Part shown: one piece after another, positions 14,369-53,525 of the stretch
How the letters are laid out: each line of letters starts with the position of its first letter
Numbering within the stretch: the stretch's first letter is position 1
The notes under the pieces: model-generated
Database searches by the model: none
The model's input: the letters and a program-made list of their open reading frames with translations, nothing else
Told to the model about the DNA's origin: nothing
Source: a phage
DNA length: 64,000 nt
NCBI GenBank assembly: GCA_015370545.1
Contig: GCA_015370545.1_3932.1
Direction: 5' to 3' (one strand)
Made by a program: the position numbers and the translations under genes

Positions 14369-14428
14369 TTTTACTCCCTCTAAAATCATTAACCTCATAC
14401 ATTACTGCAAAAAATTATAAAAAGCAAG

Positions 14429-14457: not shown

Positions 14458-14625
14458 TTTGCGAAGTGGGTTTTTACTTAAAAGGTCACTTAACAGTTTA
14501 ACTATACAGATACTTTAAAACTCTTAAAAGATTATTTAATAGCTTTTAAAAAGCTTTAAAGTATAACGTATAGAATACGTTAAGATAAAAGATTAAAACT
14601 TAATAGTTACTTAAAAGAGGCTTAC

Positions 14626-15048: not shown

Positions 15049-15049
15049 T

Positions 15050-15862: not shown

Positions 15863-15880
15863 GTTTTTATAAATCTTACA

Positions 15881-15904
15881 AGCCTCCTTAGTTGGGGGCT
15901 TTTT
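15881..15904 (+). terminator. rho-independent terminator
   Basis: AGCCTCC...GGGGGCT hairpin followed by TTTT. Confidence 0.55.
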
Positions 15905-15923
15905 AGTAATTAAGGGAGATAAA

Positions 15924-16667: not shown

Positions 16668-16675
16668 AAGAGATA

Positions 16676-16876
16676 ATGAAGATGAGAGTAAAAGACAATT
16701 TTAAAGTTATTGACCACCGTTTAGTGGAACTCTCATCTCTTTCCAATGAGGTAATGATTGAACGTCTTAAGAGAGTTGAATCACGAAGGGAAGAGATTGC
16801 AGATGAAATTCATGAACTGGACAAGATTGAAAATGGATTGAAGGCAGAACTACAACGAAGAGGTGCTAATGTCTAA
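16676..16876 (+). CDS. hypothetical small protein
   Basis: 66-aa ORF, charged/coiled. Confidence 0.4.
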   Translation: MKMRVKDNFKVIDHRLVELSSLSNEVMIERLKRVESRREEIADEIHELDKIENGLKAELQRRGANV

Positions 16877-18854
16877 AGGTCGTAAATTGAAAGAGGCTGG
16901 TCAGTTTATTGGTCATTGTGCATGTCCACGTTGTGGTTCATCAGATGCTGGTTCCATCTATCATCATGACGATGATTCTTATTCGATGACTTGCTTTAGT
17001 TGTAACAAAGGTTTCCCAGAGTGGGATTTTGATAAAGGACAAATCGTGAGCACTTATTCTACTGGTCCAGACAATAAAAACCGTACTTTCCGTGGAATGG
17101 ATTTAGACGATGTAAAAGAAAACCTTGAAGCAATGGACTTAAAAGACAGGAAGATTCCTGCAAAAGTTCTTGAGCGTTTGGGTATCAAGGTTGACATTGA
17201 CAGTGACGGTGAAATTGACGCACATTTCTACCCAACTTACAAACGCAATGAAGATGGCAAGCTAGAGCATGTTGGCTACCGTGTTCGTCACCGTTACCCA
17301 GAAGACCATCCAAAAGAACACCTACGAGGTAAGCTAAAAGACTTTTCTGGTGGTGTTGGAGACATTAAAGGTGAACTGGCAATGTTCGGCTCATGGATTG
17401 CTCCAGAAGGTGGTAACCGTCTATTCATCTGGGAAGGTGAGATGGAATGTGCGACAGCAATCTACATGACTTCTTTGGCGATTAAAGATAAGTCTCGTCG
17501 TAAGAATTACTGTCACGTATCTGTTCCGTCAGGTGCAAACATTAAGTCTATCAAAGATAACTATCAGTACATTACATCATTTGATGAAATTTACTTGTGC
17601 TTTGATAACGATGAAGCAGGTGCTAAAGCTACCAAAGAGGCTGCTGGTATCCTACCTATTGAGAAGGTTCGTTTATTCCAGTATCCAGAGGGTGTAAAAG
17701 ACCTAAACGAATGGTGGACAAAGTTCTATAAAGAGAAAGATACAGTTCTGGAAGGATTTAAGCAGCGTATCTACAACGCACCTCGTTATTGCCCTGCTGG
17801 TATCAAGAACTTTGCAGATGGTTTTGAGGCAATGAAGAATCGTGGTCAGATTCCTTTGATTCCTTTCCCAGAATCTTTCGGGGATTTGAACAGACTAACT
17901 TACGGTGGTTATGGTTTAGGAGAGATTACAACTCTGGCAGCACCATCTTCAGTAGGTAAATCAGCTTACACTCGTGAGATGATTTATTCAGCTTGGAAGG
18001 AAACCGATTACAATATTGGTGTAATTCCGGTAGAAGATACCTATGAAGAGTTGATGGAGATGCTCTGTGCAATTCACCTGAGCAAACAGATTTCTGAGAT
18101 TCCTTATGACGAACGTGATTGGGATGAATTAAAGGAAGCACACGCAGAACTATCTAAAGGTCGTCGTATCCACATCGTAGACCATCAAGGGGCGATTGAC
18201 CAAGACAACCTGCTGGAATTTGTTGACTATCTTGTTAACAGTTTAGACTGTAAGATTATTATTCTTGACCCTATTACGTTGGCTCTGTCACGTTCAGATA
18301 CGGATGAAGAGGAAGTTTTGTCTGAGCTATTGCGTCGTTGCAAACGCTACCAGTATGCACAGGTTAACGTCTGTCACGTTCGTAAGAGTGCAGGTGGTCA
18401 GAAAGCCAACTCTGAAGGTGGAGACATCTCTGAAGAGGATATTAAAGGCTCTGGTGCGTATTTCCAGATTTCCATGAACAACATTCTGTTAATGCGTAAC
18501 AAGGTTGACCCAGACCCTGTTAAGAAAAACTTGACAAAAATAAAGTTAACTAAGTGTCGTCGTCATGGTAAGTCAACAGGTATTGCTGGTCATACTTGGT
18601 ACAATCCAGACACAGGGCGTCTTATCAAAGCTTCTGGGTGTGGTGTTGACATTGATGGTGCAGCAGAAAATATCCGTCAACAGTTTGGTATTGGTGAAGC
18701 TGAAGACCATTATGACGACTCTTTACCTCATTATGAGGATGAAGTGTTTGACCGTGAGACTGGTGAAGTCTATACTGAAGAACAGCGTCAAAGCTCAATG
18801 ATTCCACCTGTATTAAGCGAGGATGCAGATGACTGCCCATTCGAAACTGAGTGA
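16863..18854 (+). CDS. bifunctional primase-helicase (T7 gp4-like)
   Basis: 663 aa; N-terminal zinc ribbon CACPRCGS...CFSCN, TOPRIM-like centre, DnaB-type Walker A APSSVGKS. Confidence 0.85.
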   Translation: MLMSKGRKLKEAGQFIGHCACPRCGSSDAGSIYHHDDDSYSMTCFSCNKGFPEWDFDKGQIVSTYSTGPDNKNRTFRGMDLDDVKENLEAMDLKDRKIPAKVLERLGIKVDIDSDGEIDAHFYPTYKRNEDGKLEHVGYRVRHRYPEDHPKEHLRGKLKDFSGGVGDIKGELAMFGSWIAPEGGNRLFIWEGEMECATAIYMTSLAIKDKSRRKNYCHVSVPSGANIKSIKDNYQYITSFDEIYLCFDNDEAGAKATKEAAGILPIEKVRLFQYPEGVKDLNEWWTKFYKEKDTVLEGFKQRIYNAPRYCPAGIKNFADGFEAMKNRGQIPLIPFPESFGDLNRLTYGGYGLGEITTLAAPSSVGKSAYTREMIYSAWKETDYNIGVIPVEDTYEELMEMLCAIHLSKQISEIPYDERDWDELKEAHAELSKGRRIHIVDHQGAIDQDNLLEFVDYLVNSLDCKIIILDPITLALSRSDTDEEEVLSELLRRCKRYQYAQVNVCHVRKSAGGQKANSEGGDISEEDIKGSGAYFQISMNNILLMRNKVDPDPVKKNLTKIKLTKCRRHGKSTGIAGHTWYNPDTGRLIKASGCGVDIDGAAENIRQQFGIGEAEDHYDDSLPHYEDEVFDRETGEVYTEEQRQSSMIPPVLSEDADDCPFETE

Positions 18855-26003: not shown

Positions 26004-27073
26004 TTAACCAACACCCAATCTTTTTAGGTGGTGAGAGAAAGACATTTGACTCACTTAACAAGCACTACCCAAAAATCTTTGAGCTATATAAACAACAAAA
26101 AGCGCAAGACTGGTCAGAAGATGAGTTCCCTTTTGAACAATCACGTCTTGATTTTGAAAGTGTGCCAGCATCAATGTCAGGTGTAATGCTTGAGATTCTT
26201 AAGTGGCAGTGGGAAGCAGATACCCAAGTTGCTAAAAGTTTAGCGTTTGCTTTTGCACCATTCATCTCTGATGACATTTATGCAACTGCAATTATGAAGC
26301 AGTCTGAGATTGAAAACCTACACGCCCTGACTTACTCGGAGATTGTAAGGCAATGTATTAAAAATCCTGAAACAATCTTAGATGAGATTAACCAGAACAT
26401 TGCTGTACAAGACCGATTAAAAACTGTGAATCGTGTTCTTGAAGAATTGCTGGATGAAGGTATAAACTATCGACTGAGTTATGTCCGTGACTCACTTCTG
26501 GACAAAGACCCTTTACACTTCCATAAAGTGATTCTGAAAGGTCTATTTGCAGTGACTGCACTGGAAGGTATATCTTTTATGGCATCCTTTGCATGTACTT
26601 TTGCACTTGATGCTCAAGATAAATTTCAGGGTATTGCTCAAGCTGTGCAGAAGATTATGCTTGATGAAATCCTTCACACTAAAATTGATATTGAAGTTTT
26701 AAAAGAAACTTTAAGAGATGACGAGTGGCAGAAAGCTTTTCAACAAATTCTTCCAGAGATTAAAGTAATCTTAGATGAAGTAGTTGAAAGTGAAGAGAAA
26801 TGGTCGTATTATATCTTCTCTGAAGGACGTGCTGTAGTTGGGTTAAATACAAAACTTCTTCATGAGTGGGTTTACTATAATGCTGCCCCACTGTATGATA
26901 TGTTTGGCATTCCCAGAGATTTTGTAGCTCCTAAAGAACCACCTTTGAAGTACATGATTAAGAAGATGGAAATTGATAAAGAGCAGAATGCTAATCAGGA
27001 GCAACAGAACGGTGCGTACCTATTGAATACTGTTGTAGATGATTTGAATAGTGGATTTTTAGAGGTTCCTTAA
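26000..27073 (+). CDS. nrdB: ribonucleotide reductase small subunit
   Basis: ORF 25940..27073; start placed at the in-frame ATG at 26000 preceded by AAAGGAG; ferritin-like di-iron protein, follows nrdA. Confidence 0.8.
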   Translation: MINQHPIFLGGERKTFDSLNKHYPKIFELYKQQKAQDWSEDEFPFEQSRLDFESVPASMSGVMLEILKWQWEADTQVAKSLAFAFAPFISDDIYATAIMKQSEIENLHALTYSEIVRQCIKNPETILDEINQNIAVQDRLKTVNRVLEELLDEGINYRLSYVRDSLLDKDPLHFHKVILKGLFAVTALEGISFMASFACTFALDAQDKFQGIAQAVQKIMLDEILHTKIDIEVLKETLRDDEWQKAFQQILPEIKVILDEVVESEEKWSYYIFSEGRAVVGLNTKLLHEWVYYNAAPLYDMFGIPRDFVAPKEPPLKYMIKKMEIDKEQNANQEQQNGAYLLNTVVDDLNSGFLEVP

Positions 27074-27315
27074 TGACTTATGTAATTTACTCCAAAACTG
27101 GATGCCCTCAGTGTGAGACCGCAAAGAATTTTGCAAAAGCTCGTGGTATTGACCATGTTGTGAGAATGTTAGGGTATGACTATGAGCTATCAGACCTGAT
27201 GGATATTGCACAGATGCCAGTTCGTCAGATGCCATTCATCATGAAAACTGATGGACAAAACCTAAAACCTGTTGGAACGCTACAGAATTTTATGGCAGAG
27301 GTGAATAATGCTTAA
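27073..27315 (+). CDS. glutaredoxin/NrdH-like redoxin
   Basis: 80 aa; CPQC active-site motif near N-terminus; follows nrdB. Confidence 0.6.
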   Translation: MTYVIYSKTGCPQCETAKNFAKARGIDHVVRMLGYDYELSDLMDIAQMPVRQMPFIMKTDGQNLKPVGTLQNFMAEVNNA

Positions 27316-27514
27316 ACGCCTTTGGGAAGGTTTGGTTGTTGATGCACCAGCCATTGTGATTGGTATGCTTGTTGTTAACCTATTTACTGATTTTGAACAA
27401 GGTTCATTGTTTGGGGCCATGCTATTATGGGTTATCTTTGAAATATTAGAGATACAGCTAGGCATCACTGAAAAACTAAGAAAACTCGTTTCAAAGTTTT
27501 CTAAAAAGATTTAA
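27308..27514 (+). CDS. small membrane protein
   Basis: 68 aa, two hydrophobic segments. Confidence 0.4.
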   Translation: MLKRLWEGLVVDAPAIVIGMLVVNLFTDFEQGSLFGAMLLWVIFEILEIQLGITEKLRKLVSKFSKKI

Positions 27515-44269: not shown

Positions 44270-45055
44270 ATGGGTATTGTAAAAATAATTAATGGTGATA
44301 TCTTTGCCGCATTTGATAAAGGTAAGTTTGACATCATCGGTCACGGTTGCAACTGTATGAATTTAATGAGTGCAGGTATCGCTGACAAGATTTCTAAACT
44401 TTACCCAAAAGCATATGAGACCGATACAGAAGTTTATCTGTATGCAGGTGGTATAGGACACAAACCCTGTGAAAATTTACTAGGTAATTTCTCTGTAGCA
44501 CGTTTAAAACAAGGTCGTATAGCTAATCTTTACACTCAGCTTAAGACTGGTAAAGATGCCCGATACAGTGCTTTAGAGTCATCTTTGAAACAGCTTAACA
44601 GATACTGTGAAGTTAATCAGTTGAAGAAAGTTGGGTTACCTATGATTGGTGCAGGTATCGGTGGACTTGACCCTCAAGCCGTTACCGTTATCATTAATCA
44701 GGTGATGAAGAGTGTAGATGTGTATCTGTATGTCTACGAAGGAGAGATGTACCACAAGTTACGCTCAGGTTGGAATAACTACTGCGAACCAGAATACTTT
44801 GCAGGTGTAGTAACGTTCACAGACAATGCAGTTACCCTCTTCAGACGAAGAAAAGGTAAGATACATCAAAGTAACCCTCCGGTTGAAAAGATGTCTCTAA
44901 GTAACGCTCTAGTTACCCACCTGTCGAAGAGCAATCACAGAATTGCAGTAACATTTGGCAGTGATGCAGACACATATATCTATGCAAGGACTGATGAAGA
45001 TATCGAGGAGATTTTCTCATCACAAGAAGTTACCTTCTTAGACGCAAAGAACTAA
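44270..45055 (+). CDS. macro-domain-like (ADP-ribose binding/processing) protein
   Basis: 261 aa; N-terminal GDIF...DIIGHGCNCMNLMSAGIA and glycine-rich VGLPMIGAGIGGLDP fit the macro-domain pattern; extra C-terminal region. Confidence 0.5.
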   Translation: MGIVKIINGDIFAAFDKGKFDIIGHGCNCMNLMSAGIADKISKLYPKAYETDTEVYLYAGGIGHKPCENLLGNFSVARLKQGRIANLYTQLKTGKDARYSALESSLKQLNRYCEVNQLKKVGLPMIGAGIGGLDPQAVTVIINQVMKSVDVYLYVYEGEMYHKLRSGWNNYCEPEYFAGVVTFTDNAVTLFRRRKGKIHQSNPPVEKMSLSNALVTHLSKSNHRIAVTFGSDADTYIYARTDEDIEEIFSSQEVTFLDAKN

Positions 45056-45085
45056 TAAACTCTGTAGAATATTCACAATAGATTA

Positions 45086-45130
45086 AGCCTTCCTTATCTG
45101 GTAAATTTTTCAGGTAAGGAAGGCTTTTTT
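45086..45130 (+). terminator. rho-independent terminator
   Basis: 10-bp stem GCCTTCCTTA/TAAGGAAGGC followed by TTTTTT. Confidence 0.6.
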
Positions 45131-45320
45131 ATTTCAAGATTGTGCAGGTAGAGTTCTGTAGAGAAATCTGTAGAGAAAATTTTGAACTCCAAAGAGAAAA
45201 TTCATTTTCAAACTGTGCAGGTAATCTCCAAAGAGCTTTTTCATTTTCAAAACGTGCAGACCCCGCTCAGGTCGGGCAAGAAAAATCATTTTAGAATTGT
45301 GCAGGTAGGTGGATGCAGGT
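45120..45320. repeat. four direct repeats of TTTTCAAAnTGTGCAGGTA-type unit in ORF-free DNA
   Basis: copies near 45125, 45205, 45245 and 45290; flanking CTCCAAAGAG also repeats. Confidence 0.5.
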
Positions 45321-45484
45321 GGGGATGTCGCCATTTCTCACAAGGCTAACACATCTGGAAATAAAAGTCAACAGAAAAATTTGTAGCGGATTGAAAAATA
45401 ATTCTTGATTGTAGTTCTGTTTTGTGGTAGTCGCGTGCGCCCGTTTCATTACAATTTTTGCAAAAATATTTTTAAAATTCCTAT

Positions 45485-45575
45485 TGACTCTTTGAGTATG
45501 GTTATCTAATATTTGCATCAACGGGGAGGGAATGACCTTCCCCACTAAGTAAAGTCCTAAACTGGAGATTCTAAA
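45485..45575 (+). promoter_or_regulatory. promoter + conserved 5' hairpin leader + RBS
   Basis: TTGACT-17 nt-TAATAT, then CAACGGGGAGGGAATGACCTTCCCC hairpin, then AAACTGGAGATTCTAAA ATG. Confidence 0.55.
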
Positions 45576-45956
45576 ATGGCATACCGTGCACCTAAATTCA
45601 TCAACAAAGACAACTTCCGCAACGCACTGGAGAAGTCACTTGATGAAAAATTTAACGGCAAATTGATTGTTGTTCACGCATTCAATTTTAAGTATGATAT
45701 TAACGGGAATAAAATCAACCATTACACGGCAACCATGTTAGATGGTACGCTATCAAGTGAAAAAGCCGTACTGAATGCACTTGCAGGACGTGGTAAAAAC
45801 CTGATAAGCTGCAATAAGAGACGTTATCAAGGTGGCGCATATGGTTATGATGATGCTGTTTACCATCTTGAAAATATGGGCTATTCAGTGGAGAAAGCTG
45901 GAGCGTCTCAAATAATTGGTAGTGATGGTTATGTGACAATCTTCAAAATTAAATAA
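45576..45956 (+). CDS. small cassette protein 1
   Basis: 126-aa ORF behind conserved leader. Confidence 0.55.
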   Translation: MAYRAPKFINKDNFRNALEKSLDEKFNGKLIVVHAFNFKYDINGNKINHYTATMLDGTLSSEKAVLNALAGRGKNLISCNKRRYQGGAYGYDDAVYHLENMGYSVEKAGASQIIGSDGYVTIFKIK

Positions 45957-46042
45957 AAGTACTTTACAAGGGGCTTATAGTTCGATAAAGTAAGCCCCAG
46001 ATAAAGAGCTTTATCACTCAATCCTAAATTGGAGATTCAAAA
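45957..46042 (+). promoter_or_regulatory. conserved intergenic cassette (hairpin + palindrome + RBS)
   Basis: AAGTACTTTACA-GGGGCTTA...TAAGCCCC-AGATAAAGAGCTTTATC-...TGGAGATTCAAAA; one of four near-identical units. Confidence 0.55.
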
Positions 46043-46300
46043 ATGGCTATTATCAAAAACGTTGTAGTTCCTGCAAAAACTCGTGATGACGCTCGCATCA
46101 TGGCGAAAAAGTTAGGCGGGAAAGTGGTTGACAACGGAAAACAATCTGCTGTAAGATGGAGCGTGAAGGCTGATAAGCAACTAACCTTAAAACGCAGTTC
46201 AAACAATCTTTTTAAAGGTGTAAAATCACTCGGTAAAGTGAACGTGTTTACCAAAAAAGGCTATAAAATGCACTTATCATTAACTGGCAATTTAATCTGA
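46043..46300 (+). CDS. small cassette protein 2 (basic)
   Basis: 85-aa ORF behind conserved leader. Confidence 0.55.
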   Translation: MAIIKNVVVPAKTRDDARIMAKKLGGKVVDNGKQSAVRWSVKADKQLTLKRSSNNLFKGVKSLGKVNVFTKKGYKMHLSLTGNLI

Positions 46301-46390
46301 TAAAGTACTTTACAGGGGGCTTAAAAGCTGATATCTTAAGCCCCAGATAAAGAGCTTTACCACTCAATCCTTAAACTAGGAGATTCAAAA
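46301..46390 (+). promoter_or_regulatory. conserved intergenic cassette
   Basis: same unit as 45957..46042. Confidence 0.55.
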
Positions 46391-46903
46391 ATGAAAACTG
46401 TAGAAGCTACCTTTGAAGTTGTAAAAGAAAAATTTTCCATCATTTACGAAGCTGTTAATTGCTTTGAAGCAAGCCATAACCTTGATAATTGGGAGTTTAC
46501 AGATGACCATCAAGGCGGCGTGACTATTAAAAACCCCAACTGTCAGCGTAATGATTTTAAATATGCAATCCCTTTACATTACAGCCTTAAACAGCTTTCA
46601 AGTGACTATGCAAAACAAGGCCGGGAAAATCCATCAAAAGAGGCTTACATAAGCTTACAGAAAGAACTAGAAAGAGATTTAGAGGCTTCAGAATACAACC
46701 TTGCCGCGAAAGTTGTCGATGCAAATGGTCAAACAATTTTAGATAGTTTTTATATTGGTTACGCTTTCGATTGGTGCTATAGTGACGGCGATGATTTAGA
46801 GGATAGACTAAAAGAAGAGGTGAGCAATTCAGACGCAGAATCTGAAGTATTAGAACGCTTGGAAGCATTAAAAGATTCAGTGATGAATATCTTTAAGAAC
46901 TAA
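46391..46903 (+). CDS. small cassette protein 3 (acidic C-terminus)
   Basis: 170 aa; D/E-rich C-terminal region. Confidence 0.55.
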   Translation: MKTVEATFEVVKEKFSIIYEAVNCFEASHNLDNWEFTDDHQGGVTIKNPNCQRNDFKYAIPLHYSLKQLSSDYAKQGRENPSKEAYISLQKELERDLEASEYNLAAKVVDANGQTILDSFYIGYAFDWCYSDGDDLEDRLKEEVSNSDAESEVLERLEALKDSVMNIFKN

Positions 46904-46990
46904 ATAGATTTCTTTACACGGGGCTATCAAGCTGATAAGATAGCCCCAGATAAAGAGATTTATCAACTATCCTAAACTGGAGATTCAAAA
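46904..46990 (+). promoter_or_regulatory. conserved intergenic cassette
   Basis: same unit (GGGGCTATCAAGCTGATAAGATAGCCCC hairpin variant). Confidence 0.55.
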
Positions 46991-47287
46991 ATGAAATTAT
47001 CAAATAAAGTCCGTGAAAATCTAAGCAAGTTACTCAACAAAATTGATTTTATCGAGACATCAAGGAATAGTCATGATGTTATGGAATGGTTACACGGAAA
47101 AATCAAAGGCCGTCGTGTAGTGATTTGCTTATGGAATAGTTGCAGGGAATATAAAAAACCTGTATTACAAGTCAATATCTATGATGATACTTTTAAAAGC
47201 CCTGTAAAGTCTAAAAGTGATTTATTAGAATCCTATGAGATAACTGTAAATGGCAAAGTATCAAGTAAAGAGGAAACACCATGTTAA
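46991..47287 (+). CDS. small cassette protein 4
   Basis: 98-aa ORF. Confidence 0.5.
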   Translation: MKLSNKVRENLSKLLNKIDFIETSRNSHDVMEWLHGKIKGRRVVICLWNSCREYKKPVLQVNIYDDTFKSPVKSKSDLLESYEITVNGKVSSKEETPC

Positions 47288-47613
47288 TGACTGGTATCAC
47301 TGCAATCATTGCCATTTTCGCGCTATATAAGGCATATAAAGCCTATAATCTAGCAAATAAGGCAATCACACAGCAGGTTAGCAATAGCCTTGTAGAAAGC
47401 TTTCTAGGGCGTCTCAGTGATGAGCAAATAAAGCGGTTAGAAATGAGCTTCAGATTCAAAGCGAAAACCTATCAGATAAGTGACATCTTCAAGGATGATT
47501 TCCAGTTAGTCGATGATTATAATTCTCTGATAAATGCTTTAAATATCAGTGACTTAAAAGACTACTACGCTGTAATTGTTCAAGAGTTGAGCAAACGAAA
47601 ACAAAACTGTTGA
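47281..47613 (+). CDS. small cassette protein 5 (membrane anchor)
   Basis: 110 aa; N-terminal hydrophobic segment ITAIIAIFALY; overlaps previous stop. Confidence 0.5.
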   Translation: MLMTGITAIIAIFALYKAYKAYNLANKAITQQVSNSLVESFLGRLSDEQIKRLEMSFRFKAKTYQISDIFKDDFQLVDDYNSLINALNISDLKDYYAVIVQELSKRKQNC

Positions 47614-47702
47614 CACTGATTTTTAGATAGATTAAATTACACATCAACGGGGAGGGAACAACCTTCCCACTAAATAAAGTCCTTAAACTAGGAGATTCTA
47701 AA
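47610..47702 (+). promoter_or_regulatory. promoter + conserved 5' hairpin leader + RBS
   Basis: TTGACA-17 nt-TAAATT, CAACGGGGAGGGAACAACCTTCCC hairpin, TAGGAGATTCTAAA ATG. Confidence 0.6.
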
Positions 47703-47975
47703 ATGTATACTACTAACAATGGCCTCACTTTGAACGTCACACTACGTCACTATGTAGATGGTGTCATGCACTTTGAAGATTTACAAGCTGAACAACATAT
47801 CTTAGATTGGCAAGTCGCAGGACTCCAAAAAACTGCTACGGGATACGGTAAAAAGATTCCAACTAGTTGGAAAGTTCACTATGAAGGACGTTTGCGCAGA
47901 ATTTATCAAGATGTGCAAAGCAATAGCGCATCGAGTTACATTATAGTAAAAGGTGAAAAACTGCATTTAGTATAA
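47703..47975 (+). CDS. small cassette protein 6
   Basis: 90-aa ORF. Confidence 0.55.
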   Translation: MYTTNNGLTLNVTLRHYVDGVMHFEDLQAEQHILDWQVAGLQKTATGYGKKIPTSWKVHYEGRLRRIYQDVQSNSASSYIIVKGEKLHLV

Positions 47976-48060
47976 AGTACTTTACATGGGGTTTAAAAGT
48001 TGGTATCTTAAGCCCCAGATAAAGAGCTTTACCCCTAAATCCTAAATTGGAGATTCAAAA
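47976..48060 (+). promoter_or_regulatory. conserved intergenic cassette
   Basis: same unit as 45957..46042. Confidence 0.55.
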
Positions 48061-48465
48061 ATGGCTATTAATAATCGTGAGTTATCAATCTTAAAAGCAC
48101 GTTTAACCGTTAATCGAATCAATGTTATCACGTCATCAGCACCAGACGAGACATTACACAACATTATCGGGAAGATTCAAGGTGTTATCTTAGACGTTGA
48201 GAATGTAAAAAACTCATTAGCAGACGTTGCAGCAGGTGTTACACTAGACGGCGCACAATATGAAATGATTGACATGTTAGGCAAATCAAAGGTTATGAAT
48301 AAAGAGTTAGACTTAAAAATGTTTCGATTTGCCGTGAAAGTATGGCTATCTGTCGAGTATGATGCTAATTTTGCAATTGCTGATTTCTTTGCCACTTGGT
48401 TGCAACGTAACTTAACAAATCATGATTTTCGTGATATCTGTGATGCAATTTACGCAGAACTTTAA
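48061..48465 (+). CDS. small cassette protein 7
   Basis: 134-aa ORF. Confidence 0.55.
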   Translation: MAINNRELSILKARLTVNRINVITSSAPDETLHNIIGKIQGVILDVENVKNSLADVAAGVTLDGAQYEMIDMLGKSKVMNKELDLKMFRFAVKVWLSVEYDANFAIADFFATWLQRNLTNHDFRDICDAIYAEL

Positions 48466-48473
48466 AAATTTTA

Positions 48474-48565
48474 TTGACACTGATTTTTAGATAGACTAAA
48501 TTACACATCAACGGGGAGGGAACAACCTTCCCACTAAATAAAGTCCTTAAACTAGGAGATTCAAA
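48474..48565 (+). promoter_or_regulatory. promoter + conserved 5' hairpin leader + RBS
   Basis: TTGACA-17 nt-TAAATT; near-identical to 47610 copy. Confidence 0.6.
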
Positions 48566-49108
48566 ATGAAATGCTTTCACGGTACTACTCAAGAAAACTT
48601 TATCAACCTGATTAATAACGGTGATAAACCATCAGGTGTATGGAATTGTTCGGATATGGACGGCAATTTTTACGTGTACCCAGAAAATAAACTCTATGGT
48701 GATGATGAGGAAGAGATAGCATCGGAAGGTATCCAGCAAGCTCTAGGAAATGCCACTATCACGGCAGCTTTTCAGATGAAAACTCAAAATATTGTTATCT
48801 TAGAACTTGACATTCCAGAGGATGAGCTAAATGATGATTATTCTTGTGATAACATGTCAAATATAGCAAGCTTTACAGAGTACTTTGATGTAAATTGGAT
48901 TAAAAAGGTCTATACAACAGAGTTCAACGCTATGTATTCACCTTTTTGTCTCCCTTCACTGGATAACCCAAATTTGAATTATCTTGATGAAACATTGGAG
49001 CTACTTGCTAAAAGTATCCAACAATCCGACAGTATTCAGGTTTTTTGTGACATCATGGATACACTGACAGAAAACATTGTAGAGAGTGATTTAAAGGTCT
49101 TTTTCTAA
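48566..49108 (+). CDS. small cassette protein 8 (highly acidic)
   Basis: 180 aa; very D/E-rich with almost no Arg. Confidence 0.55.
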   Translation: MKCFHGTTQENFINLINNGDKPSGVWNCSDMDGNFYVYPENKLYGDDEEEIASEGIQQALGNATITAAFQMKTQNIVILELDIPEDELNDDYSCDNMSNIASFTEYFDVNWIKKVYTTEFNAMYSPFCLPSLDNPNLNYLDETLELLAKSIQQSDSIQVFCDIMDTLTENIVESDLKVFF

Positions 49109-49142
49109 AAACCTATACATTCACCTTATAAACACTGATTAA

Positions 49143-49160
49143 CCCCTTACAGGGGCTTTT
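49143..49160 (+). terminator. rho-independent terminator
   Basis: CCCCT-TACA-GGGGC followed by TTTT. Confidence 0.5.
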
Positions 49161-49174
49161 AGAGGGCTTAAATC

Positions 49175-49408
49175 ATGCTTACAACCATTTATCTCATCCT
49201 TTCTATCTGTAACGGTCATTCATGTGACTTTAAAGGGCTTGAAGAGTTTACAGGAAGTAAAGAAAATGCTATTCAGGTTTGCCAGATAGCAAGACAAGAC
49301 TATCCCGCCAGTGACGACATTCAATGCTACTTTAAGACAGAAGATGAAGACGGCATCTATTTTGACAGCGTTGACGGTCAATATGAAATTATCATTGAAA
49401 AAGACTAG
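49175..49408 (+). CDS. small cassette protein 9
   Basis: 77 aa; hydrophobic N-terminus, acidic body. Confidence 0.5.
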   Translation: MLTTIYLILSICNGHSCDFKGLEEFTGSKENAIQVCQIARQDYPASDDIQCYFKTEDEDGIYFDSVDGQYEIIIEKD

Positions 49409-49499
49409 ACAAGCCTGATAAAAGTCTGTAAATTGTCAATCAACGGGGAGGGAATGACCTTCCCCACTAAATAAAGTCCTTAAACTAGGAGATTCAAAA
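49406..49499 (+). promoter_or_regulatory. promoter + conserved 5' hairpin leader + RBS
   Basis: TAGACA-17 nt-TAAATT then CAACGGGGAGGGAATGACCTTCCCC hairpin. Confidence 0.55.
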
Positions 49500-49841
49500 A
49501 TGGCTTATGTAACCGTAATTACCGATAAAGCTGGCTCATCTTGGTCAACTCAGGTTAGTGATAAGATGTCGCCTATGCAGTGCCTAAAATACTTTGAGCA
49601 GTGGAACAAAGGCGAGGATGTAAGCCCCTTTCAAGTGATGCAAATCATCCATACAGATAACGAAGGGAATAAAACGACCTTGAACAGTGAATACTACGCA
49701 AGCCGTTTTGAAACGAGAAGTAAAACAATGAAGCTTTTACGTGAATCCGGCTATTCTCATATTGCCGCGCTAATCTGGGATGACCTGCTAAAAAGCCAGC
49801 GTATCAGCTATGTAAAACCTGAAAAAATATTCATCAGTTAA
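49500..49841 (+). CDS. small cassette protein 10
   Basis: 113-aa ORF. Confidence 0.55.
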   Translation: MAYVTVITDKAGSSWSTQVSDKMSPMQCLKYFEQWNKGEDVSPFQVMQIIHTDNEGNKTTLNSEYYASRFETRSKTMKLLRESGYSHIAALIWDDLLKSQRISYVKPEKIFIS

Positions 49842-49872
49842 TCAATAACTTACAAAAAACTTTTAAAAAAGT

Positions 49873-50062
49873 GTTGACAATACCCCTTGACATTGGTAAC
49901 TTTGTTCGAGGGGGTTTATCTAAAAGGGATTCACTTAATAGATTCTTTATAGATAAACTTAAAAAATTGCTTGCAAAGGCAAATCAAAACAAGTAAATTA
50001 CTAATCAACGGGAAGGGATTAACCTTCCCACTAAGTAAAGTCCTTAAACTAGGAGATTCAAA
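49873..50062 (+). promoter_or_regulatory. tandem promoters + conserved 5' hairpin leader
   Basis: TTGACAATACCCCTTGACA at 49873, then TTGCAA-17 nt-TAAATT at 49971, then CAACGGGAAGGGATTAACCTTCCC hairpin. Confidence 0.5.
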
Positions 50063-50593
50063 ATGAACAAGTTTCAAGCTATCAACTATATTCGCTCATC
50101 CAACGTTATGACTAAGCCCGTTAAAGATACCTTCGAATTTCGTTGCAACGGTGTACACTTTGCAACTATCACTAAATCAGAAAACGGGGCTTATTATATA
50201 CATCGTCGTAATGCCTCTACTGTTGTAGTCTCTCACTTTATGCAAGCTGTAGCAGAACTGTTACCGCTATTCTTAGGTATTTACTTAGATGAGTGCAAAA
50301 ACGTTCGCAACCACGTTAAAGACCTTTTAAATGGTTATAAAATGGCTTATGAACGTTCTATCAAGAATCTTAACAAGTTCTATAAAGCCCCTGAAAATAC
50401 TGTTTCAATGGCTTACAGTGTAAGCGGTGAGTTGGTTAGCCTCTTTGAAGTGGAAGAAATCGCGTTGCATGACTTACGCCCTAGCGGTTACTCTAAGACA
50501 CTAGAGGAAGGTTTAACGTTCAATATCAAGAACTTAGAAAAAACTTTAAAAGATATTGAAAAAGATATTGACGAGACAATCAAAAATCTGTAA
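50063..50593 (+). CDS. small cassette protein 11
   Basis: 176-aa ORF. Confidence 0.55.
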   Translation: MNKFQAINYIRSSNVMTKPVKDTFEFRCNGVHFATITKSENGAYYIHRRNASTVVVSHFMQAVAELLPLFLGIYLDECKNVRNHVKDLLNGYKMAYERSIKNLNKFYKAPENTVSMAYSVSGELVSLFEVEEIALHDLRPSGYSKTLEEGLTFNIKNLEKTLKDIEKDIDETIKNL

Positions 50594-50655
50594 ATTGTCA
50601 ATCAACGGGGGATAACCTCCCCCACTAAACAAAATCCTAAACTGGAGTTATCAAG
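50566..50655 (+). promoter_or_regulatory. promoter-like + conserved 5' hairpin leader
   Basis: TAAATT box at 50591 then CAACGGGGGATAACCTCCCCC hairpin; -35 uncertain. Confidence 0.45.
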
Positions 50656-50919
50656 ATGGAAAACGTAGAATTAACCACACTTTTACAAATTGCAACCGAC
50701 AAAGAAGATGTAGCATTATTCCACCGTATCGAAAGCGATTTGTTCAATGGTGAAATCATTAAAGAATCTTACGAAGTTGTCGGATTCAAAGATGGTAAAG
50801 CATTTGGCTTTTTTGACCTCGACAAAAGCAAAGCGGTTACAATGTACGATGTTCTATCTTGTGAAATTCTGACAAAATACAACGAAAAAAGGCTTGCAAC
50901 CTACGCCAATATGCAGTAA
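50656..50919 (+). CDS. small cassette protein 12
   Basis: 87-aa ORF. Confidence 0.55.
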   Translation: MENVELTTLLQIATDKEDVALFHRIESDLFNGEIIKESYEVVGFKDGKAFGFFDLDKSKAVTMYDVLSCEILTKYNEKRLATYANMQ

Positions 50920-50986
50920 ATTACTAATCAACGGGGAGGGAATGACCTTCCCACTAAACAAAGTCCTAAACTGGAGAATCTAAATT
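50894..50986 (+). promoter_or_regulatory. promoter + conserved 5' hairpin leader + RBS
   Basis: TTGCAA-18 nt-TAAATT then CAACGGGGAGGGAATGACCTTCCC hairpin. Confidence 0.5.
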
Positions 50987-51235
50987 ATGTCAACTATCCG
51001 CGTAACTGTTAATGCTTATGGCTGCCACAAACTTGATGCAAAATTCGATATCGGTGGAACAGATAACACCTTTGACCTTATCAAAATGCTGATTCAGCAG
51101 GTGATACCAGATTATAACCCTACTGATGACTTCTGGAAAGATGCCGTAAAAGAAGCCATAAACGAGGAATCTCACTACCATTATTGGGGTGACTTGATTG
51201 TCTCTCTATACTACAGCAAACAAGGCTACAACTAA
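50987..51235 (+). CDS. small cassette protein 13
   Basis: 82-aa ORF. Confidence 0.55.
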   Translation: MSTIRVTVNAYGCHKLDAKFDIGGTDNTFDLIKMLIQQVIPDYNPTDDFWKDAVKEAINEESHYHYWGDLIVSLYYSKQGYN

Positions 51236-51273
51236 TCGACGCAACGGGGCTAAATAGCCCCAGATACCTTTAC

Positions 51274-51296
51274 AGCCCCTTAAATGGGGCTTTTTT
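51274..51296 (+). terminator. rho-independent terminator ending the cassette array
   Basis: AGCCCC-TTAAAT-GGGGCT followed by TTTTTT; preceded by a second GGGGCTAAATAGCCCC hairpin. Confidence 0.65.
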
Positions 51297-51299
51297 ACG

Positions 51300-52860
51300 T
51301 CTATCGAATCCTTATACAATCCCTTTCCCTTTCCTTTCTAGAATCTTATCAGACCTTAAAAAGCAATAACTCTATAGTCTACTCTATAACCTCTTATCAA
51401 ATCAACTTAAATATAAGCCAATAACCCCAGAAAGGGGATGGCCCATTAAAACGCTCTATAAAGCTCTATAACAGCCTTATCAACCTAACTTAAGCAATCA
51501 TATTAACCCACTCTAAAAAGCCCTTTATAGAGCTTCCCAGAGCCTTAAAAGAATCTTATAAGGGTGAAAGCTTATAGGCTGGCTAGTATCTTGTGAATAA
51601 CTAAACAATCCCCTTGATAGTCACTAAAAAGCATGTTATAGGGGCTATAAAGTTACTTCAAAGTAACGTAAAAAAGGCTATAAAGTTACGTAAATGCTAG
51701 CCCCCTTAACATTTTCTTAACAATTTCTTAACAATCCCTACATAGTTATGCTTGTTAGAGACTTGTTAGCCCCTTGTTAAATCTCTGTTACAACCATGTA
51801 AAAGCCTTGTAAGAACCTTTGACATAGCCTTAAAAGCCCTGTAAAGCCCTATAAAGAGCTATCCATACAGTTGGGCTGTAGTTACTAGGGAGAGACTTAA
51901 AAGGGGCTATACAGAGCTATAGAGGGCTTTTAAGAGGTATGTTTAAAGAATCACTAAGAATCAAAGGGAACGATAAGAAAAGAGATAGTGACCATGTTAA
52001 TAGCTTGTTAAAAAGATTAAACACTTGTTAGAAACTTGTTAATTATCCCTACAAAATAACTCTTTAAAATTAACTTGTTAGCTCTTGTTAGTCATCTGTT
52101 AAGACTCTGTAAAGACTATTCAGCACTTGTTAGAAAACTGTTAAGTTCTTGTTAGTTCTGTTAAGAAACTGTTAAGACCTTTGGAGAGTTGTTAAGAGCT
52201 TGAGAGAGTTGTTAAGAGATTGTTAAGGATATTTTAAAATTCTGCAAAGTACTTGTAAGGGAGCTGTTAAGGGCTACCAAGCAGATATACATCTTCTACA
52301 GATATTTTTCAGTTCCTTCAAAGACCCTAAAAAATGACTTGATAGCCCTATTTTATAAAAATTTTAAAATTCTGAATAATTACCTAGACAGTCTTTTAAA
52401 AATACAGGTAGAAACAGGCTTATAAGATACCTTGTTAGTACCGTGTTAGACCTTGTGAGATAAGGTCTGTGAAGATATTCCTGTTAAGTTTGTTAAAACA
52501 GTCTATATAGAGGCTTAGTAGTACCTAGTGAACATCTATAGAGGGTATCATAGCTAACCTAGAGATTAAGAGGTGTATAGGGGCTTCTAAGAGGGTATAG
52601 AGAGATGGTTAAGGTGATTGTATAGGTTGTTAAGAAGGATTGTTAGAAGAGTGTTTAGAGGGCTATTTAGAAGGGTTATACAGAGGGCTATTAAGACCAC
52701 TAGATAGTTACTAAGATACTATATAGTACTATATAACTATATAGAGAGTAAGATTAAGAAGGTTGTTAAGAAGGATAGATATCTTATTCACATATGATGG
52801 TGACCCAGAGGTTGGGACAACCGATAAAATTTTATAAAAATATAAATTTCGTAAATTTTA
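51300..52860. repeat. ORF-free iteron-rich region (candidate origin or packaging/regulatory locus)
   Basis: no ORF of 60 aa or more; dozens of (C/T)TGTTA(A/G) units at about 10-11 bp spacing (densest 52010-52260); repeated TATA(A/C)AG(A/C)GCTAT and GGCTATAAAGTTAC units; ACTATATA triple near 52720. Confidence 0.6.
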
Positions 52861-52901
52861 CTCAATAAAAAGCCCCCAATTAAGGAGGCTCTTAAGATAT
52901 T

Positions 52902-53525
52902 TTAAATCAGTGTTTCCAGAACTGTTTTTAGTGATGACTTGGTTGTCTGATAAAAATGAGTAAAGCCGTTGTTGTTATCAAATACCTGCATCATGATATC
53001 ATCTCCCTTGATTGGGTACACTCGGATATCATAGTGAAAACCATTAAAGACACAAGAGCCATTACAGAATGCACTAAAGTCATCCACTGAGATATACTCT
53101 TCATGTCCTGTGATTTTTATACAGATACCTTTACTCGGTCTCTTAGGATTAATATCTTCCATCACAGACATATTCTGTCCGCCAAGAGATACCATAGTGA
53201 CCACTTTACGGTTCTTCTGTCTAAAGTACATTTTAACTTTCTGCAAAGTGTCTTCATAGAACGGATAAGACTTCTCTACAAAGATTCCTTCAAGTGGCTC
53301 TTTACCATTTTCAACTTCTCTGTTATGCCGTACTGCAAAGATAATTTGTTCGAACCAGTCAAGATTTTCTTCGGAGAGTGCTTCTCGAATATCCTTCCAG
53401 TCAAGGACTAGATAGTTACCTTCAACTTCTTTTAAGTTATCTTTTTCCATGTTTATCACACCATTATCGTAAAACTTGATATTCTGGTACTGCGAATTTA
53501 TTACTGTTGTTCTTGATGAGGTCAT
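52902..53525 (-). CDS. hypothetical protein
   Basis: 207-aa ORF. Confidence 0.45.
   Translation of the reverse strand: MTSSRTTVINSQYQNIKFYDNGVINMEKDNLKEVEGNYLVLDWKDIREALSEENLDWFEQIIFAVRHNREVENGKEPLEGIFVEKSYPFYEDTLQKVKMYFRQKNRKVVTMVSLGGQNMSVMEDINPKRPSKGICIKITGHEEYISVDDFSAFCNGSCVFNGFHYDIRVYPIKGDDIMMQVFDNNNGFTHFYQTTKSSLKTVLETLI

What the first reader, a model, noticed from the sequence alone, without database searches (positions are those of the whole stretch)
45957..48060. Four near-identical intergenic units combining a hairpin, a GATAAAG-AG-CTTTATC palindrome and the shared RBS
Units at 45957-46042, 46301-46390, 46904-46990 and 47976-48060 share AAGTACTTTACA, a GGGGCTTA...TAAGCCCC hairpin, then AGATAAAGAGCTTTATC (perfect in the first copy, one mismatch in the others) and the common leader. 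The palindrome looks like a dimeric protein operator; the hairpin may act as an attenuating terminator. Repeated units like this can also provide homology for cassette shuffling.
Basis: seen in the sequence. Interest (0 to 1): 0.5.

Follow-up and report, generated by a model that had tools for sequence, protein, structure and literature searches.

The report
Promoter–hairpin cassettes between phage early genes
The four repeats are portable control cassettes of a Felix O1-like phage, each with a host-type promoter wrapped in a conserved hairpin plus a shared ribosome-binding leader; the same kind of cassette lets T4-like phages switch on and shuffle small accessory genes.

Summary
There are exactly four copies on the gene strand, each filling the gap between two small genes of unknown function in a Felixounavirus (98.8% identical to phage Ro111lw).

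Every copy reads TTTACA-17 bp-TAnnnT, often with TGn. Across 46 distinct family cores, only the -35 hexamer, T-12, A-11 and T-7 stay fixed while the rest of the loop varies. That is the conservation pattern of a sigma-70 promoter.

The GGGG...CCCC hairpin surrounds the -10 element. It is kept by compensatory changes (98.5% of cells paired, 4 of 9 pairs with changes on both sides). No U tract follows it, so it is not a canonical terminator.

The "operator" palindrome is perfect in only 4 of 111 contexts, occurs nowhere outside the units, and pairs with the -35 region as the lower stem of one long hairpin.

Gene gains and losses between related phages have their junctions inside these units and a sister class of units.

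Architecture, position and behaviour match the PeSL (promoter-early stem-loop) cassettes of T4-like phages, read directly from phage Phi1 for comparison. I found no paper describing them in Felix O1-like phages. This is a new member of a known kind, of moderate interest. Promoter and RNA functions are inferred, not measured.

The parts
45954..46045 (+). Class-A unit 1. Runs from the stop codon of gene 45576-45956 to the ATG of gene 46043-46300.
   Evidence: Sequence; ORFs; covariance-model hit of 85.9 bits.
46298..46393 (+). Class-A unit 2. Runs from the stop codon TGA (46298-46300) to the ATG at 46391.
   Evidence: covariance-model hit of 89.6 bits.
46901..46993 (+). Class-A unit 3, the variant with compensated stem changes. 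Runs from the stop codon TAA (46901-46903) to the ATG at 46991.
   Evidence: covariance-model hit of 75.7 bits.
47973..48063 (+). Class-A unit 4. Runs from the stop codon TAA (47973-47975) to the ATG at 48061.
   Evidence: covariance-model hit of 86.8 bits.
45963..45991 (+). Predicted sigma-70 promoter of unit 1: TTTACA, 17-bp spacer, TAAAGT. The inferred start is near A45999.
   Evidence: Promoter scan; family conservation of the -35 hexamer, T-12, A-11 and T-7.
46309..46337 (+). Predicted promoter of unit 2: TTTACA, 17-bp spacer, TGA-TATCTT (extended -10). The inferred start is near A46345.
46913..46941 (+). Predicted promoter of unit 3: TTTACA, 17-bp spacer, TGA-TAAGAT (extended -10). The inferred start is near A46948.
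47981..48009 (+). Predicted promoter of unit 4: TTTACA, 17-bp spacer, TGG-TATCTT (extended -10). The inferred start is near A48017.
45970..45998 (+). Inner stem-loop of unit 1: 9 base pairs and an 11-nt loop that holds the -10 element.
   Evidence: Folding energy -12.9 kcal/mol, z -3.95; covariation.
46316..46344 (+). Inner stem-loop of unit 2.
   Evidence: Folding energy -12.4 kcal/mol; covariation.
46920..46947 (+). Inner stem-loop of unit 3, GGGGCTATC/GATAGCCCC.
   Evidence: Folding energy -15.2 kcal/mol; the TA->AT swap is compensated on both arms.
47988..48016 (+). Inner stem-loop of unit 4, with a U.G wobble.
   Evidence: Folding energy -10.0 kcal/mol; the same wobble is seen in 29 of 67 family sequences.
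45956..46012 (+). Whole extended hairpin of unit 1. The lower stem pairs AAAGTACTTTA (overlapping the -35) with TAAAGAGCTTT. A 3x3 internal loop (CAA/AGA) separates the two stems.
   Evidence: Minimum-energy fold of the 104-nt unit, -23.4 kcal/mol, z -3.2; lower helix 90% paired but mostly invariant.
46301..46359 (+). Whole extended hairpin of unit 2.
   Evidence: Fold -26.9 kcal/mol, z -3.2.
46904..46963 (+). Whole extended hairpin of unit 3. The lower stem is 13 consecutive pairs, ATAGATTTCTTTA with TAAAGAGATTTAT.
   Evidence: Fold -30.7 kcal/mol, z -6.1; G-C to U-A compensation at one lower-stem pair.
47973..48031 (+). Whole extended hairpin of unit 4.
   Evidence: Fold -26.8 kcal/mol, z -3.0.
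45484..45578 (+). Class-B sister unit. It has a TTGACT-17-TAATAT promoter, then ATCAAC plus the hairpin GGGGAGGGAATGACCTTCCCC, then the shared leader and RBS.
47610..47705 (+). Class-B unit with a TTGACA-17-TAAATT promoter.
   Evidence: (repeat family D1).
48474..48568 (+). Class-B unit, 98% identical to the copy at 47610.
49406..49502 (+). Class-B unit.
49971..50066 (+). Class-B unit.
50568..50660 (+). Class-B unit, a diverged copy.
50894..50990 (+). Class-B unit.
45085..45126 (+). Canonical intrinsic terminator (17-bp stem followed by a T run). It marks the upstream edge of the cassette region.
   Evidence: it corresponds to t13 of Felix O1 (PMC3185647).
51274..51291 (+). Canonical intrinsic terminator that marks the downstream edge of the cassette region.

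Best explanation
Each unit is a composite regulatory cassette of the PeSL (promoter-early stem-loop) type, found here in a Felix O1-like phage. Read 5' to 3', it consists of:
- the stop codon of the upstream small gene in an A-rich stretch;
- a host sigma-70 promoter, -35 TTTACA, 17-bp spacer, -10 TAnnnT, usually with an extended -10 TGn;
- a 9-bp G-tract/C-tract stem-loop that encloses the -10 element;
- a conserved initially transcribed stretch, AGATAAAGAGCTTTA;
- a leader and RBS shared with a second class of units.

Proposed mechanism:
1. Host RNA polymerase starts near the A of AGATAAAG, so each small gene gets its own early transcript with a standard leader (inferred).
2. Transcripts that read through from the upstream gene contain the complete hairpin. 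There it acts at the RNA level as an attenuator, a 3'-end protector or a processing site, which insulates neighbouring cassettes. That a structure is under selection is shown. Which of these roles it plays is inferred by analogy with PeSLs.
3. The units are about 90 bp long, repeated 11 times in 6 kb (classes A and B together), and share a common 3' leader. They therefore act as portable homology. Recombination between them inserts, deletes and swaps single-gene cassettes. The pattern is shown by comparison of genomes; the mechanism is inferred.

It contains the 3' arm of a lower stem that pairs with the -35 region.
For: Promoter:
- All four units are listed as TTTACA-17-TAnnnT, with TGn in 3 of 4.
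- In 46 distinct family cores, 45 have TAnnnT placed 17 or 18 bp after TTTACA.
- T-12 and A-11 carry 2.0 bits and T-7 carries 1.84 bits. Positions -10 to -8 carry 0.2-0.4 bits. Fourteen different hexamers occur, and TGn is present in 27 of 46 (invariant columns).
- The spacer stays at 17-18 bp even when the unit length changes.
- Felix O1 genes 16 and 20 lie just downstream of the two 57-bp repeats. They peak at 5 min after infection, while gene 19, upstream of the second repeat, peaks at 25 min (PMC3185647).

Hairpin:
- The inner helix is 98.5% paired across 67 distinct sequences. Four of its 9 pairs show changes on both sides. These include G-C to U-A in Erwinia phages and six pair types at one position.
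- No shuffle out of 500 reaches the observed covariation score. Structures slid by 1-3 columns fall to 31-54% paired.
- The inner hairpin folds at -10 to -15 kcal/mol.

Distribution: 289 phage records in three genera of Ounavirinae, with 3-10 copies per phage in the 15 related loci searched, always on the gene strand.

Shuffling:
- 65 of 86 internal alignment endpoints lie in units (25 of 37 distinct endpoint positions when endpoints are grouped in 10-bp bins), with junction overlaps of 59-114 bp.
- One core type precedes ten different CDS starts, and one gene follows at least 5 core types.
- Chimeras of the two classes exist.
- The flanking genes have no Pfam family.

Known analogue: PeSLs as described in PMC2839356. 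Read directly from phage Phi1, they have the same layout. That layout is a stop codon, AAAAGT, a -35, a GGGG..CCCC stem-loop between the promoter boxes or around the -10, no U tract, and GGAGAATCAAAATG.
Against: - No transcription start, termination or processing data exist for any Felix O1-like phage in the searched literature, so promoter and RNA roles rest on sequence alone.
- The -10 hexamers are weak (3-5 of 6 matches), and one T of the -10 is also a stem base. Part of the conservation could therefore serve the structure rather than the promoter.
- The Felix O1 RT-PCR timing is mixed. Gene 17, also behind a class-A unit, peaks at 25 min.
- In this region nearly all intergenic DNA is a unit, so breakpoints inside units are partly trivial. 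The junction overlaps and chimeras are the non-trivial part.
- The minus strand of the four window copies folds about as well as the plus strand. Strand assignment therefore rests on gene orientation and on U.G wobbles elsewhere in the family.
Confidence: 0.7

Rival explanations
1. RNase III processing sites without promoter function. The units would be transcribed only as part of a polycistronic early mRNA. The 57-60-nt hairpin would be cut by host RNase III, as at the sites between T7 early genes. That hairpin has about 21 base pairs in two stems separated by a 3x3 internal loop. Cutting would release monocistronic mRNAs with a protective 3' hairpin.
For: - All four units fold into one long interrupted helix, at -23 to -31 kcal/mol with z from -3 to -6.
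- The position between cistrons and the gene-strand orientation fit.
- One inner pair is a U.G wobble in 29 of 67 sequences, and one lower-stem pair in 60 of 67.
- No U tract follows, so an RNA role other than termination is attractive.
- The resemblance to T7 sites comes from my own knowledge and was not tested here.
Against: - It does not explain why the only invariant loop bases are T-12 and A-11, at a fixed 17-18 bp from an invariant TTTACA, nor the frequent TGn.
- Seven of 12 lower-helix pairs never vary, and one position is unpaired in 60 of 67 sequences.
- No Rfam family matches.
- This role is compatible with the best explanation as a secondary function. As the sole function it is weak.
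Confidence: 0.12
2. Operator sites. A phage-encoded dimeric DNA-binding protein would recognise the palindrome TAAAGnnCTTTA. It occurs twice per unit, about 46 bp apart, overlapping the -35 region and the start region. Binding would switch these promoters off or on.
For: - Two 12-bp palindromes with the same half-sites flank the promoter core in units 1, 2 and 4.
- Both are conserved as sequence even in Erwinia phages, more strictly than base pairing alone would require.
- The pattern with up to 1 mismatch occurs 29 times against 5.4 expected.
Against: - Exact matches occur only inside the class-A units. The other hits are class-B leaders or lie in coding sequence.
- The full 16-bp palindrome is perfect in 4 of 111 contexts.
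- Unit 3 and its orthologues break the palindrome at both sites, in a way that keeps the two sites complementary to each other.
- A 46-bp spacing puts the two sites on nearly opposite faces of the helix (inference).
- No candidate regulator is linked to the motif. The HTH-like ORF at 7433-7762 lies on the minus strand and has no nearby site.
Confidence: 0.1
3. Canonical intrinsic (rho-independent) terminators that end the transcript of each upstream gene.
For: There is a GC-rich 9-bp stem directly after a stop codon. By analogy, one PeSL stem-loop lowered downstream reporter expression as much as rrnB T1 (PMC2839356).
Against: - The stem is followed by AGATAAAGAG, not a T run.
- The terminator scan reports none of the units. 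It does find the two canonical terminators at 45085 and 51274, which bound the region and have long T runs.
- The 10-11-nt loops are larger than the 3-8 nt the scan allows for a terminator.
Confidence: 0.04

Closest known systems
PeSL (promoter-early stem-loop) cassettes of T4-like phages (Arbiol et al. 2010, PMC2839356; Comeau et al. 2014, PMC4122927)
   Same: - They lie between the stop codon of one small gene of unknown function and the SD/ATG of the next.
- There is an A-rich stretch upstream, then a sigma-70 -35 and -10.
- A G-tract/C-tract stem-loop with G.T pairs sits between the boxes or around the -10, and no U tract follows.
- They occur in many copies, clustered in a variable region.
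- Indel and replacement junctions between related phages lie in the elements.
- Phi1 PeSLs read here resemble the units even in detail: TAAAAAGTTGTTGACA against TAAAAGTACTTTACA, -10 TAAGAT inside a GGGAGTA..TACTCCC hairpin, and GGAGAATCAAAATG against GGAGATTCAAAAATG.
   Different: - The host lineage is Ounavirinae (Felix O1-like, 87 kb), not Straboviridae.
- The -35 is TTTACA rather than TTGACA, and the -10 hexamers are weaker.
- The loop is 10-11 nt rather than about 4.
- An extra lower stem pairs the -35 region with +4 to +16, so the whole promoter sits inside a hairpin of about 60 nt.
- Promoter activity, terminator activity and mini-circles have been shown for PeSLs but not for these units.
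The 57-bp and 39-bp direct repeats listed in the Felix O1 genome paper (Whichard et al. 2010, PMC3185647)
   Same: They are the same sequences. The 57-bp repeat CTTTACATGGGGCTTAAAAGTCTGTAAAGTAAGCCCCAGATAAAGAGCTTTACCACT is the class-A core, and the 39-bp repeat TTGACACTGGTTTTTAGATAGATTAAATTACACATCAAC is the class-B promoter.
   Different: That paper lists them only as direct repeats, without a structure, promoter or function. Its promoter list does not include them. It states that how transcription passes the terminators, and how timing is controlled, is not known.
RNase III processing hairpins between T7 early genes (from my own knowledge, not tested here)
   Same: A long interrupted helix with an internal loop, lying between cistrons of an early transcript.
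   Different: The T7 sites carry no promoter. No cleavage data exist here, and no Rfam model matches.
T4 early promoters (Hinton 2010, PMC2988021)
   Same: They combine an A-rich upstream stretch, a -35, TGn and a -10, all recognised by unmodified host sigma-70 polymerase.
   Different: The class-A units match the consensus less well and have an embedded hairpin.

Membership tests
PeSL (promoter-early stem-loop) cassette | Fills the intergenic gap from the stop codon of one small ORF to the SD and ATG of the next. | tested here: met
   All four units meet this.
PeSL (promoter-early stem-loop) cassette | Sigma-70-like -35 and -10 boxes with an AT-rich stretch upstream. | tested here: met
   Met by sequence only: TTTACA-17-TAnnnT, with TGn in 3 of 4 units. 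The family conservation pattern is that of a promoter.
PeSL (promoter-early stem-loop) cassette | Stable stem-loop, often a G tract followed by a C tract with G.T pairs, placed between or overlapping the promoter boxes. | tested here: met
   A GGGG..CCCC 9-bp stem surrounds the -10 at -10 to -15 kcal/mol. Covariation supports it. The layout matches Phi1 PeSLs.
PeSL (promoter-early stem-loop) cassette | Many copies clustered in a variable region of small genes of unknown function. | tested here: met
   There are 4 class-A and 7 class-B units in 6 kb, and 3-10 class-A copies per related phage. None of 8 flanking proteins has a Pfam family.
PeSL (promoter-early stem-loop) cassette | Insertion, deletion and replacement junctions between related phages lie in the elements. 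| tested here: met
   65 of 86 endpoints lie in units, with junction overlaps of 59-114 bp. Reassortment and chimeras are seen.
PeSL (promoter-early stem-loop) cassette | Measured promoter activity and measured terminator or attenuator activity. | not testable with these tools
   This needs reporter fusions or RNA end mapping. No such data were found for Felix O1-like phages.
PeSL (promoter-early stem-loop) cassette | Excised mini-circles formed by recombination between two elements. | not testable with these tools
   This needs inverse PCR on phage DNA.
Intrinsic (rho-independent) terminator | GC-rich hairpin followed directly by a U tract. | tested here: not met
   The stem is followed by AGATAAAGAG. 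The scan reports no terminator at any unit, but does find the canonical ones at 45085 and 51274.
RNase III processing site (T7 early-mRNA type) | About two helical turns of double-stranded RNA, commonly interrupted by an internal loop, between cistrons. | tested here: met
   The fold has 9 bp, a 3x3 loop, then 11-13 bp with one mismatch. This is a structural resemblance only.
RNase III processing site (T7 early-mRNA type) | Cleavage by RNase III in vivo or in vitro. | not testable with these tools
   No data are available. No Rfam family matches.
Palindromic operator of a dimeric repressor | Dyad symmetry maintained across copies. | tested here: not met
   The perfect 16-mer occurs in 4 of 111 contexts. 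Unit-3-type copies lose the dyad at both sites.
Palindromic operator of a dimeric repressor | Sites also present at other regulated promoters, or near the regulator's own gene. | tested here: not met
   Exact TAAAGnnCTTTA occurs only inside class-A units. Hits elsewhere are coding sequence.
Phage N4-type hairpin promoter | A 5-7-bp stem with a 3-nt loop, read by a virion RNA polymerase. | tested here: not met
   The loop is 10-11 nt. Felix O1 encodes no RNA polymerase (PMC3185647). The N4 features are from my own knowledge.

The most novel reading that the evidence does not exclude
The whole promoter is deliberately enclosed in a conserved hairpin of about 60 nt so that one DNA element gives the same mRNA by two routes. 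Polymerase starting at the unit makes a transcript beginning at AGAUAAAG. Read-through RNA from the upstream gene folds into the complete hairpin and is cut by RNase III in the CAN/AGA internal loop. That leaves a protected 3' end on the upstream message and a nearly identical 5' end on the downstream one. A variant of this reading is that a phage protein binds the twin TAAAGnnCTTTA sites to shut the early promoters off. Either would be a mechanism not described for PeSLs.
Probability: 0.12. Interest if true: 0.6.

Novelty: new member of a known kind. Interest (0 to 1): 0.38.

Why it matters
Felix O1-like phages are widely used for Salmonella typing and biocontrol and as model phages (for example Bas63). 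Their genome paper states that the control of their transcription is unknown.

These cassettes would supply the missing early promoters for about a dozen small accessory genes. They would also explain why that region differs from phage to phage one gene at a time.

If so, the PeSL design is not a peculiarity of T4-like phages. It recurs in an unrelated group of coliphages. That design is a promoter with an embedded stem-loop and a standard leader, which doubles as recombination homology.

The units are also practical. They mark natural, tolerated insertion points, already equipped with promoter and RBS, for engineering these phages.

Tried and rejected
- Rfam scan of 43-53 kb at a permissive E-value: nothing relevant. 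A 21-bit sub-threshold hit to the mir-22 precursor on unit 2 only reflects the long hairpin.
- Terminator scan: no unit qualifies.
- Operator test, looking for TAAAGnnCTTTA elsewhere: exact copies occur only in the units, and the others checked lie in coding sequence.
- Folding of the palindrome as its own hairpin in a promoter-initiated leader: it forms in 1 of 4 units, with unremarkable z-scores of -0.4 to -1.3.
- Strand preference by folding energy: the minus strand folds about as well in these four copies. I therefore do not claim strand specificity from energy.
- T4 MotA-box idea: some relatives read TGCTTTA, the MotA-box consensus as I remember it. It lies 19 bp from the -10 rather than about 12, and Felix O1 has no known MotA/AsiA (PMC3185647). 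Rejected.
- N4-type hairpin promoter: rejected, because the loop is too large and there is no phage polymerase.
- A weak 5-bp complementarity between the -35 and the start region in class-B units: not conserved among copies, so dropped.
- Literature searches for transcript maps of Felix O1-like phages found none. The Bas63 gene-essentiality paper does not treat these intergenic units.
- Pfam scan of eight flanking small proteins: no family.
Full report
**What the window is.** The region 44-50 kb is 98.8% identical to Escherichia phage vB_EcoM-Ro111lw. It is 91-93% identical, with gaps, to many other Felixounavirus genomes. In annotated relatives the stretch is a run of small hypothetical genes on one strand, downstream of a macro-domain phosphatase gene. 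None of the four units carries a promoter or terminator annotation in AYO145A, the relative whose record does annotate such features.

**Checking the observation.**
- The conserved 21-mer occurs four times against 0.01 expected.
- The leader and RBS occur seven times against 0.14 expected.
- A covariance model built from 70 family members finds exactly four copies in the window, at 76-90 bits on the gene strand. The best hit outside the units scores 24.5 bits.
- Unit 3 lacks AAGTACTTTACA and has different stem arms. Unit 4 has a wobble in the stem.

**Anatomy.** Each unit runs from the stop codon of one gene to the start codon of the next. Folding the 104-nt units gives one long interrupted hairpin, not a hairpin followed by a separate palindrome.
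- The lower stem pairs AAAGUACUUUA with UAAAGAGCUUU.
- A 3x3 internal loop (CAN/AGA) follows.
- The upper stem has 9 pairs, GGGGCUUAN/NUAAGCCCC.
- The terminal loop is 10-11 nt.
- Energies are -23 to -31 kcal/mol, with z from -3 to -6.

Taken on its own, in a transcript that would start downstream of the upper stem, it forms a hairpin in only one of four units. The z-scores there are unremarkable.

**A promoter inside the hairpin.** All four units read TTTACA, 17 bp, TAnnnT. Three have TGn in front of the second hexamer. The scan has a high background of about 30 hits expected per 10 kb, so the argument rests on the family.

I collected 85 distinct class-A sequences from IMG/VR contigs and GenBank phages. 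These contain 46 distinct promoter cores.
- In 45 of the 46 cores there is a TAnnnT at 17 bp, or 18 bp in the longer variants, from an invariant TTTACA.
- T-12 and A-11 are invariant and T-7 is nearly so.
- The three middle positions of the hexamer and most of the loop vary freely. Fourteen different hexamers occur.
- TGn is present in 27 of 46.

This is the known conservation pattern of sigma-70 -10 elements. The promoter classes -35/-10 and TGn/-10 are reviewed in PMC2988021. When the unit is one base shorter or longer, the -35 to -10 spacing stays at 17-18 bp. The inferred start is the A of AGATAAAG, 7-8 nt after the hexamer.

The Felix O1 paper offers limited experimental support. Genes 16 and 20 lie directly downstream of its two 57-bp repeats and peak at 5 min. 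Gene 19, upstream of the second repeat, peaks at 25 min. Gene 17, also behind a class-A unit, peaks at 25 min as well, so this evidence is mixed.

**The hairpin is under selection.** I used 67 distinct sequences with the loop removed, so that both arms stay in register.
- The inner helix is 98.5% paired, and four of its nine pairs show changes on both sides.
- These include G-C to U-A in the Erwinia phages (GGTGTTTA/TAAGCACC), U-A to A-U, and six pair types at the innermost pair.
- None of 500 column shuffles reaches the observed covariation score. Sliding the partners by 1-3 columns drops pairing to 31-54%.
- One inner pair is U.G in 29 of 67 sequences. This fits an RNA, or single-stranded form, of the gene strand.
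- In the four window copies the opposite strand folds about as well. I therefore treat strand assignment as likely, not proven.
- The lower helix is 90% paired, but seven of its twelve pairs never vary.
- One lower-helix pair covaries (G-C in 53, U-A in 7, mismatched in 5), and one position is unpaired in 60 of 67.

The lower stem is therefore plausible but only moderately supported.

**Not a canonical terminator, and not convincingly an operator.** No T run follows the stem. The terminator scan ignores the units. It does find two canonical terminators, at 45085-45126 and 51274-51291, that frame the 6-kb region.

The evidence on the operator idea is as follows.
- The 12-bp dyad TAAAGnnCTTTA does occur twice per unit. 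It is well conserved even in Erwinia phages.
- Exact copies occur nowhere else in 64 kb. The near-matches I inspected are in coding sequence.
- The full 16-bp palindrome is perfect in 4 of 111 contexts.
- Unit-3-type copies lose the dyad at both sites while remaining complementary to each other.

**A sister class and a shared leader.** Seven further intergenic units form class B. Each carries a near-consensus promoter (TTGACA-17-TAAATT), then ATCAAC and a GGGGAGGGAAnnACCTTCCCC hairpin, then the same leader and RBS as class A. Together the eleven units occupy nearly every gene boundary between the two terminators.

**Shuffling.** The element occurs in 289 phage records at 1353 places. They span Felixounavirus, Mooglevirus and Kolesnikvirus. 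In the 15 related loci searched, copy number ranges from 3 to 10 per phage.

I aligned window 44900-51500 to 14 related phages (examples).
- 65 of 86 internal alignment endpoints fall in the units. Grouped in 10-bp bins, 25 of 37 distinct endpoint positions do.
- The units cover 15.7% of the region.
- Almost all intergenic DNA here is a unit, so this result is partly expected.
- The stronger signal is in five relatives that lack one or more genes. There, six pairs of flanking alignment blocks overlap by 59-114 bp on one shared unit.
- Where a relative has an extra gene, one window unit aligns to two units in the relative.

The same stem-loop core precedes ten different CDS starts, and one gene is found behind at least five different cores. 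Class-A cores joined to class-B leaders also exist. None of the eight flanking proteins tested has a Pfam family. In Bas63 the surrounding region is described as small hypothetical genes of varying, condition-dependent essentiality (PMC11482910).

**Comparison with what is known.** The Felix O1 genome paper lists the class-A core as a 57-bp direct repeat and the class-B promoter as a 39-bp direct repeat. It assigns them no function. It states that how the phage's transcription is organised is unknown.

The closest described system is the PeSL of T4-like phages (PMC2839356, PMC4122927). A PeSL has these features:
- an upstream stop codon in an AT-rich stretch;
- sigma-70 boxes;
- a G-tract/C-tract stem-loop, with G.T pairs, between or overlapping the boxes;
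- a Shine-Dalgarno sequence and ATG;
- clustering in hyperplastic regions next to genes of unknown function;
- a demonstrated role in indels, with promoter and terminator activity shown in reporters.

I read the PeSLs of phage Phi1 directly. They look like TAAAAAGTTGTTGACA-GGGGATCGGGAGATCCCC-TATAAT...GGAGAATCAAAATG. Some have the stem-loop around the -10 (GGGAGTAGTAAGATACTCCC), as in class A. None has a U tract.

Every sequence-level defining feature of a PeSL is met here. The experimental ones could not be tested. The differences are:
- the phage lineage;
- a weaker promoter;
- a larger loop;
- the extra lower stem, which puts the whole promoter inside a hairpin.

I found no paper describing PeSLs outside T4-like phages in the searched library.

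**Verdict.**
Shuffling is supported, the attenuator role is possible, the operator is not supported, and the promoter was missed.
- The most likely reading, at about 0.7, is a PeSL-type composite promoter, stem-loop and leader cassette in Ounavirinae.
- What the hairpin does in RNA remains open. It could be an attenuator, a 3'-end protector or an RNase III site.
- This is a new member of a known kind, of moderate interest.

Noticed in passing
window 45484-45578, 47610-47705, 48474-48568, 49406-49502, 49971-50066, 50568-50660, 50894-50990: There is a second class of seven intergenic units. Each has a near-consensus TTGACA-17-TAAATT promoter, ATCAAC, a GGGGAGGGAAnnACCTTCCCC hairpin in the predicted 5' UTR, and the same leader and RBS as the four reported units. 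Its promoter is the 39-bp repeat listed in the Felix O1 paper.
   Followed up: partly
L133 (phage Phi1, EF437941) locus 11128-18664 and 26448-27340, minus strand: PeSLs of this T4-like phage resemble the Felix O1-like units in layout and in short stretches of sequence. The stretches are AAAAGT before the -35, GGGG..CCCC around or before the -10, and GGAGAATCAAAATG. I did not examine whether this reflects convergence on host signals or exchange between coliphages.
   Followed up: partly
window 51236-52901: This is a 1.65-kb stretch without ORFs of 50 aa or more, between the + strand cassette genes and the first minus-strand ORF (52902-53525). It is packed with short repeats of 10-11 bp period built on (C/T)TGTTAAGA, including inverted copies at 51715 and 51726. 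It looks iteron-like and could be a replication origin or a packaging region.
   Followed up: no
window 45187-45304: Three direct repeats of about 34 nt (CTCCAAAGAG...TTCATTTTCAAACTGTGCAG), spaced 39 and 45 bp apart. They lie in the gap between the terminator at 45085-45126 and the first class-B promoter. A small minus-strand ORF is annotated here in relatives.
   Followed up: no
It is 109 aa with a TTG start and contains a helix-turn-helix-like stretch, LSQEQVAKICGISQARVSNI. No TAAAGnnCTTTA site lies near it outside coding sequence.
   Followed up: partly
L008 (IMG/VR contig 2974556886_000001, 90 kb): This relative carries ten exact matches to the 14-mer CCCCAGATAAAGAG, against four in the window. 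At one place the ATG after a unit's RBS runs straight into the next unit's CTTTACA (ATGCTTTACATGGGG), so the two units follow each other with almost no gene between them. This suggests a recent deletion or duplication event.
   Followed up: no
window 62600-64000: A cluster of tRNA genes is visible as repeated T-arm sequences in the repeat search, as expected for Felix O1-like phages.
   Followed up: no
window 1150-1440, 2250-3000, 4010-4080: There are in-frame nucleotide repeats, rich in histidine codons (GGTGCTCATAGTCA and similar). Longer 76-nt repeats lie within what are probably tail-fibre genes. They may correspond to the repeats the Felix O1 paper reports in genes 76 and 77.
   Followed up: no
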